From NCBI GenBank assembly GCA_012521185.1, contig JAAYMV010000014.1, positions 3,082 to 67,081 on the forward strand: a DNA stretch of 64,000 nucleotides, read 5' to 3'. This stretch comes from Bacillota bacterium. Lineage in GTDB: Bacteria > Bacillota > Limnochordia > Darwinibacteriales > DTU012. The position numbers were made by a program, and so were the translations under genes. The notes beneath the pieces are model-generated. The model made no database searches and had not been told where the DNA came from. It saw only the letters and a program-made list of their open reading frames with translations. Position 1 is the first letter of the stretch; each line of letters starts with the position of its first letter. Below are positions 13,015 to 21,268 of the stretch, one piece after another.

Positions 13015-15780
13015 ATGACACAAATTTTAGGTAAAGTCTCCCTATTTTCTTTAGTATTACTGTTATTATTGGTTAGTGTAGGTTGGGCTAATGACCAACA
13101 GGTTTCCCAAGCAGACCTGGAACAGCTTTTTAAGCAATTGGAATCAGAGCATTTTGGAACTTCTTTACTGGCACAAAATGAACTAGTGGCTTTAGGAGAC
13201 CAGAGTGTTCCTGGTTTGGAGAACATCTTAAGCAGATCATACAATCAATGGAATCGAGTGAAGGCTGTAAATGTTTTAGGTCGGATTGGTTCGGAAGATT
13301 CCATTAAAGTCTTATTAACTGCTATTAGGGATCGGGAACAAATTGTGCGAGACACAATGGTTTCAGCAGTGGAAAAGTTGGATCAGCAAGGCAAGGAATA
13401 TGCAAAATCTGGATTGATCGAATTTGCTGTAGACAGTGATTTTACAGTACGGAAGACAGCCCTAGACCTTTTAAGACGTATTGGTGTAGATGATATTGAA
13501 ATAGCTAAAGGACTACTGGAGCAAGCTCATAAAAATAAAGGTTTTGGCAAGGAAAAGATTGCCTTAAATGAGATTAAACTATTAGGAATCAAAGCAGAAA
13601 TATTAGTTCCGAACCTATTAACCTTCTATAATGAAGTTGCTGATGAACAGAAGTTTTTTTTATTGGAAGTAATCACTAGTGTTGCTAAGCCTGATACAGC
13701 TAGGGTTAAGGATATACTTTTTGCACTATTATTTTCACCGGACTGGGAGACCCGTCAAGAAGCAATTTGGGGGATGCGCCGACTAGGATTAACCGGTACA
13801 GAAATGATTACTCCAGTTTTAGAATTGATTGAGCGCGGTACTATTAGTGAACAAGAATTTGCTGTAGACCTATTGGGGCAATTAGCCATTACACAGCCAG
13901 ATGCGGTTTATGCTTTATTTGATTTGGTAGAAAACGAAGGTTATCCAAATTCATTACGTGTAATTGCTTATCAAGCTCTAAAAGGTTTAACTTCTCAGTT
14001 AGAGTGGCATTTAGAACGTGGATTAGTAGCTGTTCCGACTGAAGAGGGCATCTTTTTAAGTTGGCGTTTGTTAGGTACAGAACCAGCTGATCTTGGTTTT
14101 AATGTTTATCGGGACGGACAATTAGTTAATCCACCACCAATCGTTTCTAGCACAAATTATCTGGACACGGAAGGCACTTTAGATTCTAGGTATTATGTAA
14201 GACCGGTGCTTAATCAAACTGAATTAGAACCATCAGAGACTGTTGCTGTTTGGCAACAAGAATATTTGGCAATTCCACTGCAAGTTCCTGAGGGAGGAGT
14301 AACTCCTGTTGGAGAGCGTTACAATTATCAGGCTAATGATGGCAGTGTAGCAGATTTAGATGGTGATGGTCGTTATGAAATCGTTTTAAAATGGGAGCCA
14401 TCAAATGCAAAAGATAATGCTCATGGTGGATATACAGGCAATGTATATATTGATGCTTATAAATTTGATGGTACTTTTATGTGGCGGATCGATTTAGGAC
14501 CTAATATCCGTGCTGGGGCTCATTATACGCAGTTTATGGTTTATGACTTAGATGGTGACGGTCAGGCAGAAATAGTTATGAAAACTGCAGATGGAACTAT
14601 TGATGGTGAAGGCAATGTTATTGGTGACCCTAATGCAGATTATCGTAATAACAATGGTTATGTTTTATCTGGACCAGAATACCTTACAGTTTTTCACGGT
14701 TTAACTGGAAAAGCACTAGCAACCATTGATTATGATCCACCACGGGGAAATGTAGCCGCTTGGGGTGATAGCTATGGTAATCGAGTTGATCGGTTTTTAG
14801 CTGGTATTGCTTATTTAGATGGAGTTAGGCCTAGTGTGATTATGGCGCGGGGATATTACACCCGTACAGTACTAGTTGCTTATAACTGGGAAGATAATCA
14901 ATTAAAGCAAGTATGGAAGTTTGATACTAATCAGCCAGGGATGGCTGCTTACATGGGTCAAGGTAACCATCAGTTATCTATTGCCGATGTGGACGCTGAT
15001 GGCAAAGATGATATCGTTTACGGATCAATGACTATTGGCAGTGATGGGAAACCTCTATATAACACTCGACTTGGTCATGGTGATGCCTTACATGTAGGTG
15101 ATTTTCATCCAGAACGGCCTGGACTAGAAGTTTACGCTGTCCATGAGTCTTATCCACATCAAGCTGGATATAATCTGCGTGATGCCCGCACTGGCGAGAT
15201 TCTTTGGGGTGTACCGACTAATTATGATGTTGGTCGGGGTGCAGCTGGTAAACTAGATCCTAATTATCCTGGTTATCAGTTTTGGGCTAGTCGCAGCAAA
15301 GTGATGACCATTGACGGCCAGGAAACTGATATCCATGTCCCAGCTATGAACTTTGTAATTTGGTGGGATAAGGATTTACAACGCGAACTTTTGGATGGTA
15401 CTACTATTACCAAATGGGATTGGGAAAATCAACGGATAGTAACTTTATTATCGCCAAGGGGTGTAGCATCTAACAATGGCTCTAAAGCTACTCCAGTTTT
15501 ACAAGCAGATCTCTTTGGTGATTGGCGTGAAGAAGTCGTTTGGCGTTCTTTAGATAATCGAGAATTAAGAATTTATACAACGACAGATTTAACGGAACAT
15601 CGTTTATATACTTTGATGCATGATCGGATGTATCGAGTGGCTATTGCTTGGCAAAATGTGGCTTATAATCAGCCCCCTCATCCTAGCTTTTATGTAGGTG
15701 AGGATATGAACCCGCAAACCTTTAATATTGGTTTGATCCACAATGTTGTGACTAAATATGCTCCAGAGTTAGATTTATAG
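13015..15780 (+). CDS. Secreted rhamnogalacturonan lyase (PL11, YesW-like) with N-terminal HEAT-like repeat module, paralogue 1
   Basis: Signal peptide, then ~300 aa of α-helical HEAT/PBS-lyase-like repeats. This is followed by a Fn3-like segment and an 8-bladed propeller catalytic domain with YesW-type motifs (NDGSVADLDGDGRYEIVLKW, YIDAYKFDGTFMWRIDLG, AGAHYTQFMVYDLDGDG, GNRVDRFLAGIAYLDG, LMHDRMYRVAIAWQNVAYNQPPHPSFY). Confidence 0.8.
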   Translation: MTQILGKVSLFSLVLLLLLVSVGWANDQQVSQADLEQLFKQLESEHFGTSLLAQNELVALGDQSVPGLENILSRSYNQWNRVKAVNVLGRIGSEDSIKVLLTAIRDREQIVRDTMVSAVEKLDQQGKEYAKSGLIEFAVDSDFTVRKTALDLLRRIGVDDIEIAKGLLEQAHKNKGFGKEKIALNEIKLLGIKAEILVPNLLTFYNEVADEQKFFLLEVITSVAKPDTARVKDILFALLFSPDWETRQEAIWGMRRLGLTGTEMITPVLELIERGTISEQEFAVDLLGQLAITQPDAVYALFDLVENEGYPNSLRVIAYQALKGLTSQLEWHLERGLVAVPTEEGIFLSWRLLGTEPADLGFNVYRDGQLVNPPPIVSSTNYLDTEGTLDSRYYVRPVLNQTELEPSETVAVWQQEYLAIPLQVPEGGVTPVGERYNYQANDGSVADLDGDGRYEIVLKWEPSNAKDNAHGGYTGNVYIDAYKFDGTFMWRIDLGPNIRAGAHYTQFMVYDLDGDGQAEIVMKTADGTIDGEGNVIGDPNADYRNNNGYVLSGPEYLTVFHGLTGKALATIDYDPPRGNVAAWGDSYGNRVDRFLAGIAYLDGVRPSVIMARGYYTRTVLVAYNWEDNQLKQVWKFDTNQPGMAAYMGQGNHQLSIADVDADGKDDIVYGSMTIGSDGKPLYNTRLGHGDALHVGDFHPERPGLEVYAVHESYPHQAGYNLRDARTGEILWGVPTNYDVGRGAAGKLDPNYPGYQFWASRSKVMTIDGQETDIHVPAMNFVIWWDKDLQRELLDGTTITKWDWENQRIVTLLSPRGVASNNGSKATPVLQADLFGDWREEVVWRSLDNRELRIYTTTDLTEHRLYTLMHDRMYRVAIAWQNVAYNQPPHPSFYVGEDMNPQTFNIGLIHNVVTKYAPELDL

Positions 15781-21268: not shown

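What the first reader, a model, noticed from the sequence alone, without database searches (positions are those of the whole stretch)
13015..21268. Three tandem, diverged PL11 rhamnogalacturonan lyase paralogues each fused to an N-terminal ~300-aa HEAT-like helical module
Characterised PL11 lyases (B. subtilis YesW/YesX type, ~600 aa) begin the Fn3-like and propeller domains right after the signal peptide. Here all three copies carry an extra ~270-300-aa α-helical module built from HEAT/PBS-lyase-like repeats between the signal peptide and the catalytic region. Examples of the repeats are VKAVNVLGRIGSEDSIKVLLTAIRD, DWETRQEAIWGMRRLG and DWDERQEAIWLLRELR. The catalytic parts are highly conserved between copies, but the helical modules are strongly diverged. 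That pattern suggests each copy's module has been tuned to a different binding partner or substrate. As far as I know, a HEAT-type accessory module on a polysaccharide lyase is not a described architecture. It could be a novel anchoring, scaffolding or polysaccharide-recognition module.
Basis: partly seen in the sequence, partly recalled or inferred. Interest (0 to 1): 0.78.

Follow-up and report, generated by a model that had tools for sequence, protein, structure and literature searches.

The report
HEAT-repeat module on secreted pectin enzymes
Three neighbouring genes in an uncultured biogas-digester bacterium encode intact pectin-cutting enzymes (PL11 rhamnogalacturonan lyases), each rigidly fused to a ~300-residue helical HEAT-repeat domain that no studied enzyme of this family has; a pectin esterase in the same genome carries a shorter version, so the domain looks like an unstudied accessory module of this lineage whose job is not yet known.

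Summary
ORFs 13015-15780, 15792-18557 and 18584-21268 each encode a signal peptide, a ~265-300-aa HEAT_2 alpha-solenoid and a complete PL11 lyase with all Ca2+/catalytic residues. N modules are 27-31% identical; catalytic parts 70-73%. Solved PL11 enzymes (YesW, YesX, 4CAG) align only from residue ~328.

New here:
- The trio is an old, conserved unit. The order GGDEF-EAL -> A -> B -> C recurs in at least four species-level lineages, with orthologous A, B and C classes. Related lineages have one copy beside GH78/GH106/ABC-transporter genes.
- N modules also evolve fast between orthologues (33-47% vs 70-78%), so divergence alone does not show paralogue-specific tuning.
- A CE8 pectinesterase in the same window (58796-60619) carries the first ~4 repeats of the same module. 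HEAT_2-CE8 is conserved in relatives.
- The module joins the catalytic body without a linker (AF2 pTM 0.84). It is acidic and aromatic-poor, and resembles only protein- or DNA-binding HEAT/ARM solenoids, never a CBM.
- ~40 clusters exist in metagenomes (Limnochordia/MBA03-like), none in UniRef, PDB or the searched literature.

Verdict: a real, undescribed variant of modular pectinases. The function is inferred; I favour a protein-interaction or localisation module.

The parts
11637..12980 (+). GGDEF(degenerate GSDEF)-EAL gene, a predicted c-di-GMP phosphodiesterase. It is the conserved upstream neighbour, 34 bp from lyase A. Gene callers use a 431-aa version starting near 11685.
   Evidence: Pfam EAL 236 bits, GGDEF 83 bits. 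Motifs GSDEF, EALVR, DDFGTG, EGVE. Same position in every trio locus with enough flank. No terminator-like site between it and A.
13015..15780 (+). Lyase A (921 aa): signal peptide 13015-13089, HEAT solenoid 13090-13995 (aa 26-327), PL11 beta-sandwich plus 8-bladed propeller 13996-15780.
   Evidence: AF2 pLDDT 87.6, pTM 0.84, 16 helices spanning 32-325, then all-beta. Identical to P0001.
15792..18557 (+). Lyase B (921 aa, GTG start, 11 nt after A): signal peptide 15792-15869, HEAT solenoid 15870-16769 (aa 27-326), PL11 16770-18557.
   Evidence: Identical to P0010.
18584..21268 (+). Lyase C (894 aa, 26 nt after B): signal peptide 18584-18661, shorter HEAT solenoid 18662-19456 (aa 27-291, one helix pair missing), PL11 19457-21268. 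It has a YesX-like 7-aa insertion (HDRSRGNVG) but lacks the YesX-specific PPGNDGMSYG loop.
   Evidence: Identical to P0022 = NCBI NLM24749.1 / GX208_01340.
21260..21287 (+). Intrinsic-terminator-like hairpin (11-bp stem, 3-nt loop) plus T-run, overlapping the stop codon of C. It marks the probable end of the transcription unit.
   Evidence: RNA fold -16 kcal/mol, z = -4.5, 0 of 200 shuffles as stable. The consensus scan did not list it.
58796..60619 (+). CE8 pectin methylesterase (607 aa): signal peptide, then a HEAT-like N module (about 58865-59281, aa ~24-162) homologous to the first ~4 repeats of the lyase modules, then an unassigned ~140-aa region, then the Pectinesterase domain (aa 308-598).
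   Evidence: Pfam PF01095 281 bits. Family HMM E 5e-10, and 1.3e-8 to 3.5e-8 with signal peptides removed. hhalign 83% probability, E 9e-6, 129 columns. Homologues P0322-P0325 carry precomputed HEAT_2 + Pectinesterase and match the module HMM at 2e-11 to 3.5e-21.

Best explanation
SHOWN.
- The three genes form a co-oriented, tightly spaced unit that probably ends at a terminator after C.
- They encode exported, catalytically competent PL11 rhamnogalacturonan lyases. The organism is an uncultured Bacillota bacterium of the Limnochordia/MBA03-like digester lineage, with other pectin and arabinan genes nearby.
- Each enzyme carries, between the signal peptide and the PL11 fold, an 8-9-repeat HEAT/PBS-type alpha-solenoid fused without a linker.
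- The fusion arose once. The gene was then triplicated before the sampled species diverged, and the A, B and C classes have each been kept since.
- A truncated version of the same module sits on a CE8 pectinesterase.

INFERRED (most likely mechanism, about 0.4).
- The solenoid is a protein-protein interaction or localisation module. It would hold this lineage's pectinolytic enzymes at a defined place (a cell-envelope partner) or in an enzyme assembly.
- It would thereby fill the role that SLH, dockerin or CBM modules fill on other modular PL11 enzymes.
- The best-conserved N-terminal repeats, which are the part shared with CE8, would be the common contact. The fast-evolving distal repeats would give class-specific contacts.
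- The three catalytic domains would act as specialised isoenzymes on RG-I, by analogy with the adjacent endo/exo pair YesW/YesX of Bacillus subtilis.
For: Identity and competence:
- PL11 domains score 830-864 bits, and E is ~1e-240 to 1e-268 against 4CAG, YesW and YesX.
- Residues H652, H688, D690, E711, R741 and Y884 are invariant, and K824 is >=90% conserved, across 39 family members. With an offset of 289 they equal the His/His/Asp/Glu Ca2+ site and the Arg/Lys/Tyr substrate residues whose roles are described in PMC8787155.

The solenoid is real and rigidly attached:
- HEAT_2 scores above the gathering threshold.
- AF2 gives pLDDT 95.2 for the module alone, and pLDDT 87.6 / pTM 0.84 for the full length, with the last helix ending at 325 and the PL11 fold starting at ~328.

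Protein-binding type:
- The modules are acidic (pI 4.05-4.94 in all but one outlier, P0038, at 5.75; net charge -3 to -37) and aromatic-poor (4-7% vs 11% in the catalytic part), which is unlike a binder of polyanionic pectin.

Shared by two enzyme classes, as expected of a targeting or assembly module.

No SLH, dockerin or CBM is present on these proteins, whereas other PL11s carry them.

Conservation is highest in helices 32-91 and 244-257. CE8 shares module positions ~2-135.

Old triplication and retained classes.

Catabolic context:
- GH43, AraA, an FGGY kinase and an AraD-like gene lie in the window.
- GH106, GH78, CBM6, GH2, GH95 and ABC transporters lie beside single-copy relatives.
Against: - No partner protein was identified, and no conserved neighbour looks like a receptor.
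- The modules of one genome are only 27-31% identical, and almost only core Leu/Ala/Gly/Pro residues are invariant. This is unlike dockerins, which stay similar because they share one receptor.
- Lineages with a single HEAT-PL11 gene exist, so a hetero-complex of A, B and C cannot be the module's essential role.
- A rigid, linker-less junction is more typical of a domain that shapes the catalytic unit than of a tether.
- The inter-domain geometry of the AF2 model could not be inspected (no coordinates or PAE available).
- Cell-envelope type (monoderm or diderm), and hence the enzymes' final location, is unknown.
Confidence: 0.42

Rival explanations
1. The solenoid is a new, non-beta carbohydrate-recognition module. 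Being rigidly fixed to the catalytic body, it would extend the substrate platform and recognise pectin features such as RG-I side chains, the methyl-ester pattern or Ca2+-bridged backbone. The A, B and C modules would be tuned to different decorations.
For: - It occurs on two different pectin-active catalytic classes, PL11 and CE8, as CBMs typically do.
- The linker-less junction and pTM 0.84 suggest a fixed geometry relative to the active-site domain.
- Three classes are retained across species with class-specific conserved polar and aromatic residues, e.g. W79/N80 and W252/R256 in class A.
- These enzymes have no other CBM.
- From established knowledge, helical-repeat scaffolds can bind glycans (SusD-type TPR proteins).
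Against: - The modules are strongly acidic and poor in aromatics, while the ligand is polyanionic.
- Family-wide invariant residues are core-type only.
- All structural neighbours bind proteins, peptides or DNA.
Confidence: 0.28
2. The solenoid is an intramolecular pro-region: a folding chaperone and/or auto-inhibitor that masks the enzyme until export or processing. This would be functionally analogous, though not homologous, to the helical PMEI-like PRO region at the N-terminus of plant type-I pectin methylesterases.
For: - It is N-terminal, all-helical and directly abuts the catalytic fold.
- It is found on a CE8 pectinesterase as well. Plant CE8 hits in the same search carry the PMEI domain PF04043 N-terminal to PF01095, which shows the precedent.
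- Fast sequence evolution is compatible with a role needing fold more than surface.
Against: - There is no PF04043 hit, no Cys pairs and a different fold (solenoid versus four-helix bundle).
- No recognisable processing site or flexible linker separates module and enzyme.
- A bacterium has no pectin of its own to protect.
- 300 aa is long for a pro-peptide.
- The A, B and C classes are separately conserved.
Confidence: 0.1
3. The module has no specific ligand. It would be a stabilising, solubilising or spacer domain fixed by history in this lineage, drifting nearly neutrally apart from its hydrophobic core.
For: - Only core residues are invariant, and mean conservation per helix is 0.31-0.58 against 0.77 for the catalytic part.
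- At the sequence level it is a generic member of an enormous repeat family: 40,275 representatives at E<=0.001.
Against: - It is retained at full length in ~40 clusters, through a triplication, and in single-copy lineages. It is also present on a second enzyme class.
- Within-class conservation of surface-type polar residues, and two strongly conserved helices scoring 0.89-0.90 in class A, indicate selection beyond fold maintenance.
Confidence: 0.12
4. The lyases do not target plant pectin. They would instead act on a rhamnose/uronic-acid exopolysaccharide of the bacterium or its neighbours, co-regulated with c-di-GMP turnover for biofilm remodelling or dispersal.
For: - A degenerate-GGDEF/intact-EAL gene sits 34 bp upstream in every trio locus, and flagellin genes follow the trio in other species.
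- A second PAS-GGDEF-EAL gene lies next to the HEAT-CE8 gene.
Against: - All trio loci share the same wider synteny (UDG, PurC), so the adjacency is one inherited arrangement, not repeated independent association.
- Single-copy HEAT-PL11 and HEAT-CE8 loci lack GGDEF/EAL genes and sit beside GH78, GH106, GH95, GH2 and sugar ABC transporters.
- The window has arabinan/arabinose catabolic genes and a pectinesterase.
- The catalytic residues are those of RG-I lyases.
Confidence: 0.05

Closest known systems
Bacillus PL11 rhamnogalacturonan lyases YesW (2Z8R), YesX (2ZUY) and B. licheniformis PL11 (4CAG)
   Same: The catalytic region aligns end to end at ~60-65% identity (N-terminal beta-sandwich plus eight-bladed propeller). 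All Ca2+-site and Arg/Lys/Tyr substrate residues are conserved. In Bacillus the paralogues are also adjacent and have complementary modes. Lyase C shares one YesX-type insertion.
   Different: The Bacillus enzymes start the PL11 fold right after the signal peptide (or, for YesX, at the N-terminus). The window's proteins have ~265-300 extra residues of HEAT solenoid. None of the three has the YesX-specific loop PPGNDGMSYG. From memory, that loop confers exo action.
Modular PL11 enzymes with CBM, dockerin, SLH, Big_2 or Fn3 modules (e.g. cellulosomal Rgl11Y; many Paenibacillus/Bacillus entries)
   Same: The principle is the same: a PL11 catalytic unit plus a non-catalytic accessory module that directs the enzyme to its substrate, the cell surface or a complex.
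   Different: Those modules are beta-rich or Ca2+-loop modules, mostly C-terminal and joined by linkers. Here the module is an N-terminal alpha-solenoid with no linker and no similarity to any of them.
PBS-lyase/HEAT_2 repeat proteins (Pfam PF13646/PF03130): CpcE/F bilin lyases, NblB, E. coli YibA, and the designed alphaRep scaffold derived from their consensus
   Different: Those are cytoplasmic proteins that bind proteins or chromophores. NCBIfam equivalog scores are far below cut-off (27-31 bits against 300 for NblB). Here the repeats are exported and fused to glycan-degrading enzymes.
Plant type-I pectin methylesterases with an N-terminal PMEI-like PRO region (PF04043 + PF01095)
   Same: A pectin-active enzyme preceded by an all-helical N-terminal domain. 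These proteins appear in the same CE8 search. They offer a possible functional analogy (auto-inhibition or chaperoning).
   Different: They are not homologous: a four-helix bundle with disulfides against a 16-helix Cys-free solenoid. There is no PF04043 hit.
Cohesin-dockerin (cellulosome) and SLH anchoring systems
   Same: A possible functional parallel: one module type shared by different secreted glycan-degrading enzymes of one organism.
   Different: There is no dockerin, cohesin or SLH signature. The modules of one genome are far more divergent (27-31%) than dockerins that share a receptor, and no scaffold gene was found.

Membership tests
CAZy PL11 rhamnogalacturonan lyase | Sequence membership: matches to the PL11 catalytic (PF21348) and N-terminal beta-sheet (PF18370) models above curated thresholds | tested here: met
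   830-864 bits and 108-115 bits against cut-offs of 27 and 27.8 for all three proteins.
CAZy PL11 rhamnogalacturonan lyase | Fold: beta-sandwich followed by an eight-bladed beta-propeller, as in YesW | tested here: met
   Gap-poor alignment over ~575 residues to 4CAG, 2Z8R and 2ZUY at E 1e-240 to 1e-268. The AF2 model is all-beta from residue 338 with pLDDT mostly above 85. No separate fold search was run on this part.
CAZy PL11 rhamnogalacturonan lyase | Ca2+-site His/His/Asp/Glu and substrate/catalytic Arg, Lys and Tyr retained | tested here: met
   H652, H688, D690, E711, R741 and Y884 are invariant and K824 is >=90% conserved in 39 sequences. B and C retain NNGTK / NNDTK. Roles are as described in PMC8787155. 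Mapping to YesW numbering (offset 289) is partly from memory.
CAZy PL11 rhamnogalacturonan lyase | Beta-eliminative cleavage of the RG-I backbone | not testable with these tools
   Needs enzyme assays.
HEAT / PBS-lyase HEAT-like repeat (Pfam HEAT_2, clan TPR/ARM-like alpha-solenoids) | Repeat signature above the Pfam gathering score | tested here: met
   HEAT_2 at 68.9, 48.9 and 61.8 bits against 27.7, in 2-4 stretches per protein. alphaRep hits at E 1e-18 to 1e-21.
HEAT / PBS-lyase HEAT-like repeat (Pfam HEAT_2, clan TPR/ARM-like alpha-solenoids) | Stacked antiparallel helix pairs forming a solenoid | tested here: met
Phycobilin lyase / NblB equivalogs | NCBIfam equivalog score above cut-off | tested here: not met
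   Best scores are 27-31 bits against cut-offs of 220-300. Only the repeat type is shared.
Known carbohydrate-binding modules (CBM families) | Sequence or fold similarity to a described CBM | tested here: not met
Known carbohydrate-binding modules (CBM families) | Binding to a polysaccharide | not testable with these tools
   Indirect only: acidic pI and low aromatic content argue weakly against it.
Dockerin / SLH anchoring modules | Dockerin (PF00404) or SLH (PF00395) signature | tested here: not met
   Absent from all three proteins, although present on other PL11 proteins (P0098, P0085).
Plant-type PMEI/PRO region | PF04043 match N-terminal to the catalytic domain | tested here: not met
   No hit in the lyases or the window's CE8 protein. 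Present only in plant CE8 hits.
CE8 pectin methylesterase (for ORF 58796-60619) | PF01095 above threshold | tested here: met
   280.7 bits against 27, with the full-length profile 2-298 of 298 matched.

The most novel reading that the evidence does not exclude
The exported HEAT solenoid is the signature module of a previously unrecognised enzyme-organising system in Limnochordia/MBA03-like digester bacteria. One possibility is a non-cohesin/dockerin way of assembling or surface-tethering pectinolytic enzymes (PL11 x3, CE8 and possibly others), with the conserved N-terminal repeats as the common docking element. The other is the first alpha-solenoid carbohydrate-binding module family. Either would define a new accessory-module class for CAZymes.
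Probability: 0.3. Interest if true: 0.72.

Novelty: new variant of a known kind. Interest (0 to 1): 0.5.

Why it matters
PL11 and CE8 are well-understood catalytic families. What is not understood is how uncultured, highly abundant digester Bacillota (MBA03/DTU010-like) organise plant-polymer degradation without recognisable cellulosome, SLH or CBM modules.

A confidently folded, rigidly attached alpha-solenoid that recurs on two pectin-active enzyme classes, and has been kept through an old triplication, is a concrete and clonable candidate for a new accessory-module type. If it binds protein, it points to a new enzyme-assembly or tethering principle. If it binds pectin, it would be a new all-helical CBM family. 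Either result would improve annotation of about 40 clusters now labelled 'hypothetical protein' and could be useful for engineering pectinases. If it turns out to be a passive domain, the finding is a modest annotation note.

Tried and rejected
1. **Assembly artefact or a single gene.** Rejected. The paralogues are only ~70% identical in their best-conserved part. The same proteins occur in independent assemblies, and syntenic trios occur in other species.
2. **A 'stand-alone' HEAT module (P0121, 321 aa).** Rejected. In L015 it is the A-type gene split by a frameshift in a 2.7x-coverage assembly where neighbouring genes are also broken.
3. **N-module-only word-index search.** It returned only that fragment and was uninformative.
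4. **Exhaustive profile search with the three modules.** It was swamped by giant multi-repeat HEAT proteins. It shows the module is a generic HEAT type in sequence, but could not list fusion partners.
5. **Genome-contig scan.** It found only HEAT-less PL11 relatives (Paludibacter, Streptomyces and others).
6. **Metagenome scans.** The scan with the broad module alignment failed because no conserved stretch was available. The narrower A/D-type alignment found six loci, all PL11 trios, so it revealed no new fusion partners.
7. **AFDB Foldseek.** The library was unavailable, so I could not check UniProt/AFDB for the architecture. None of the HEAT-bearing clusters lists UniRef as a source.
8. **c-di-GMP / own-EPS hypothesis.** Downgraded, because the EAL adjacency is one inherited synteny block and is absent from single-copy and CE8 loci.
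9. **Inter-domain contacts in the AF2 model.** Not obtainable, because the tools return no coordinates or PAE.
10. **The consensus terminator scan.** It missed the hairpin after C, which was found by eye and confirmed by folding.
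Full report
**Observation.**
They are separated by 11 and 26 nt.
- Pfam assigns each the PL11 catalytic domain (RGL11_C, 830-864 bits), the PL11 N-terminal beta-sheet domain (108-115 bits) and, upstream of these, HEAT_2 repeats (49-69 bits against a gathering score of 27.7).
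- Global alignment gives 27-31% identity between the N-terminal modules and 70-73% between the catalytic parts.
- The solved PL11 enzymes 4CAG, YesW and YesX align only to residues ~328-906 of A. Residues ~35-190 instead hit the designed alphaRep proteins, which derive from the PBS-lyase HEAT-like repeat consensus, at E 1e-18 to 1e-21.

**The enzymes look functional.**
- In an alignment of 39 full-length family members, the positions H652, H688, D690, E711, R741 and Y884 of A are invariant and K824 is at least 90% conserved.
- With an offset of 289 residues these are the His/His/Asp/Glu Ca2+ site and the Arg, Lys and Tyr that hold the substrate in YesW-type enzymes. Their roles are summarised in PMC8787155. 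The YesW numbering itself is from my memory.
- Lyase C shares a short insertion with YesX (HDRSRGNVG against HDWDGTIGRP). None of the three has the YesX-only loop PPGNDGMSYG, which I recall determines exo action. All three are therefore more likely endo-acting.
- N-terminal signal peptides are evident by inspection. In the AF2 model they appear as a detached low-confidence helix.

**The module.**
- AlphaFold2 on the 39-sequence alignment gives pLDDT 87.6 and pTM 0.84. Sixteen consecutive helices span residues 32-325 at pLDDT ~90 or above, and the all-beta PL11 body starts at 338.
- The PL11 alignment to YesX/4CAG starts at 328-330, so only 2-3 residues separate the last helix from the catalytic fold. 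There is no Pro/Thr/Ser linker.
- The high pTM for a two-domain protein suggests a fixed mutual orientation.
- The module modelled alone reaches pLDDT 95.2.
- Foldseek against the PDB finds alphaRep, designed armadillo and importin-alpha structures (E ~1e-7, TM only 0.3-0.4, so the curvature differs).
- NCBIfam equivalogs for bilin lyases and NblB score far below threshold.
- The modules are acidic (pI 4.05-4.94 in all but one outlier, P0038, at pI 5.75; net charge -3 to -37) and have 4-7% aromatics against 11% in the catalytic part.
- An exhaustive profile search shows the repeat type is generic, with 40,275 representatives at E<=0.001 and the top ranks dominated by giant repeat proteins.

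**Distribution and evolution.**
- A search with full-length A returns about 40 clusters (90% identity level) that cover at least 96% of the query and carry HEAT_2 plus PL11. All come from metagenomes or MAGs. Isolate enzymes from Bacillus, Paenibacillus and others cover only the C-terminal ~62%.
- None of the HEAT-bearing clusters lists UniRef as a source.
- Named members are 'Firmicutes/Bacillota bacterium', 'Limnochordia bacterium' and 'Candidatus Wallacebacter cryptica'. One is labelled 'HEAT repeat protein'.
- That lineage (MBA03/DTU010-012) is an abundant, uncultured group in anaerobic digesters, and its Wallacebacteriaceae are reported to encode pectinesterase (PMC12663870).
- The window's own proteins B and C are identical to P0010 and P0022 (NCBI GX208_01340).
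- Clustering the alignment shows orthologous classes: A-type (N 37-41% / C 71-75% to window A), B-type (39-47% / 73-78%) and C-type (33-40% / 70-75%), plus further groups.
- Gene-order analysis gives UDG ... PurC ... GGDEF-EAL -> A -> B -> C in every locus with enough flank. These are the window with L008/L009, L010-13 with L022, L015 with L025/L026, and L023, so at least four species-level lineages.
- The triplication is therefore old and each class has been retained. The faster evolution of the module is seen between orthologues as well as paralogues.
- More distant relatives have a single HEAT-PL11 gene:
  - beside GH106 and a PL11-like gene (L014);
  - beside GH78, two CBM6 proteins, GH2 and ABC-transporter genes (L016);
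  - beside LacI, SBP and permease genes (L017/L018).

**A second enzyme class with the same module.**
- An HMM of the modules, run against all ORFs of the window and loci, hit one further ORF, 58796-60619. It is a CE8 pectin methylesterase (PF01095, 281 bits) with a signal peptide and an N-terminal helical region.
- With signal peptides removed from the profile, the match remains significant. E is 1.3e-8 to 3.5e-8 for the window protein, and 2e-11 to 3.5e-21 for homologues P0322-P0325, always to module positions ~2-135. hhalign gives 83% probability and E 9e-6 over 129 columns.
- The HEAT-CE8 architecture is conserved. P0315 is the same protein in the same MAG (GX208_01500). P0316-P0318 are full-length orthologues. 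P0322-P0325 carry precomputed HEAT_2 plus Pectinesterase. P0326 is from Limnochordia. Ordinary CE8 proteins cover only the C-terminal half.
- One such gene sits beside GH95 and an AraC regulator.
- Across the lyase family, the first three helices (32-91) and helix 244-257 are the best-conserved parts of the module. The first of these regions is what CE8 shares.

**Context in the window.**
- The unit probably ends at a strong hairpin plus T-run overlapping the stop codon of C (-16 kcal/mol, z = -4.5).
- No terminator-like site separates the upstream EAL gene from A. That gene has a degenerate GGDEF site (GSDEF) and intact EAL motifs.
- Elsewhere the window encodes GH43, L-arabinose isomerase, an FGGY kinase, an AraD-like aldolase, GH77, a divergent PL11-like FG-GAP protein, and two unknown tandem proteins with a sub-threshold pectate-lyase hit.
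- The organism is thus equipped for pectin and arabinan use, although the trio itself is not inside a classical utilisation locus.

**Interpretation.**
- Established by tool results: three intact exported PL11 lyases; a genuine, rigidly attached HEAT solenoid; one fusion followed by an old triplication; the same module type on CE8; no relation to known CBM, dockerin, SLH or PMEI modules.
- The module's function is inference. I rank the possibilities as follows.
  1. A protein-interaction or localisation role is most likely (~0.4). The fold class, the structural neighbours, the acidic aromatic-poor surface, the sharing across enzyme classes and the absence of any other anchoring module all point that way.
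  2. A new carbohydrate-recognition or cleft-extending module comes second (~0.3). The rigid junction and the retained classes support it.
  3. An intramolecular pro-region analogous to the plant PME PRO domain (~0.1).
  4. A ligand-less structural domain (~0.1).
  5. A role on the organism's own exopolysaccharide under c-di-GMP control (~0.05). The EAL adjacency is a single inherited synteny block and is absent from the other loci.
- The main argument against a dockerin-like model is that modules within one genome are only 27-31% identical and only core residues are invariant. Single-copy lineages rule out an obligatory A-B-C complex.

**Novelty and score.**
- No paper in the searchable library links HEAT repeats with rhamnogalacturonan lyases or pectinesterases, and no solved structure has this architecture.
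- The proteins are already in public databases and both domains are detectable with standard Pfam models. This is therefore an unstudied architecture, not a hidden one.
- I classify it as a new variant of a known kind (a modular pectinase with a new accessory module) and score interest at 0.5.
- The most novel reading still allowed is a new enzyme-organising system or the first alpha-solenoid CBM family. It has a probability of about 0.3 and would merit about 0.7.

Noticed in passing
window 58796-60619 (+): A CE8 pectin methylesterase with a signal peptide and an N-terminal HEAT-like region homologous to the first ~4 repeats of the lyase modules. HEAT_2-CE8 is conserved in related metagenomic genomes (P0316-P0318, P0322-P0326).
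   Followed up: yes
window 59330-59715 (aa ~180-305 of the CE8 protein): A region of ~130-140 residues between the HEAT-like module and the pectinesterase domain has no Pfam match at E<=0.01. Its sequence looks beta-rich, so it may be a further uncharacterised domain.
   Followed up: partly
window 11637-12980 (+) and 56890-58593 (-): Both HEAT-enzyme loci are flanked by c-di-GMP turnover genes. A degenerate-GGDEF/EAL gene lies 34 bp upstream of lyase A and is conserved in all trio loci. A PAS-GGDEF-EAL gene is divergently adjacent to the CE8 gene. The association is absent from single-copy and other CE8 loci, so it may be inherited synteny or chance.
   Followed up: partly
window 45543-47483 (+); also L014 8321-10075: A divergent PL11-like/FG-GAP propeller protein (646 aa; RGL11_C only 48 bits over a ~77-residue stretch) without a HEAT module. 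A similar weak PL11-like 584-aa gene directly follows the single HEAT-PL11 gene in L014. This may be a distant PL11 offshoot of unknown activity.
   Followed up: no
window 36293-37669 (-) and 37681-39024 (-): Two tandem ORFs (458 and 447 aa) have no Pfam family above threshold. One has a sub-threshold Pectate_lyase_4 hit (19.5 bits, E 8e-4). They may be divergent beta-helix pectinases.
   Followed up: no
window 39177-51345: A loose arabinan/arabinose utilisation set: FGGY kinase (39177-40844), class II aldolase/AraD-like (40857-41546), GH43 with a C-terminal lectin-like domain (43359-44909) and L-arabinose isomerase (49858-51345). An MMPL/RND-type transporter (47610-49841) lies among them.
   Followed up: no
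L016 9963-14975; L017 16955-21170; L018 9438-13653: A gene pair encoding a Yip1-domain/NHL-repeat membrane protein (675-733 aa) and a DUF5696 protein (719-928 aa) recurs next to sugar ABC-transporter genes near single-copy HEAT-PL11 genes in two distant lineages. Its function is unknown.
   Followed up: no
window 20948-20974 (lyase C aa ~789-797): Lyase C and its orthologues carry a 7-residue insertion (HDRSRGNVG) and an NNDTKGNP motif that resemble YesX more than YesW, but they lack the YesX-specific loop. This hints that C-type enzymes differ in subsite architecture from A and B.
   Followed up: partly
L015 10001-12855; L021 2735-5510: In low-coverage assemblies the A- or B-type gene is split into separate 'HEAT-only' and 'PL11-only' calls by frameshifts. 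Such fragments (e.g. P0121, and the partial NCBI entries 'HEAT repeat domain-containing protein, partial' and 'rhamnogalacturonan lyase') can mislead architecture surveys.
   Followed up: yes
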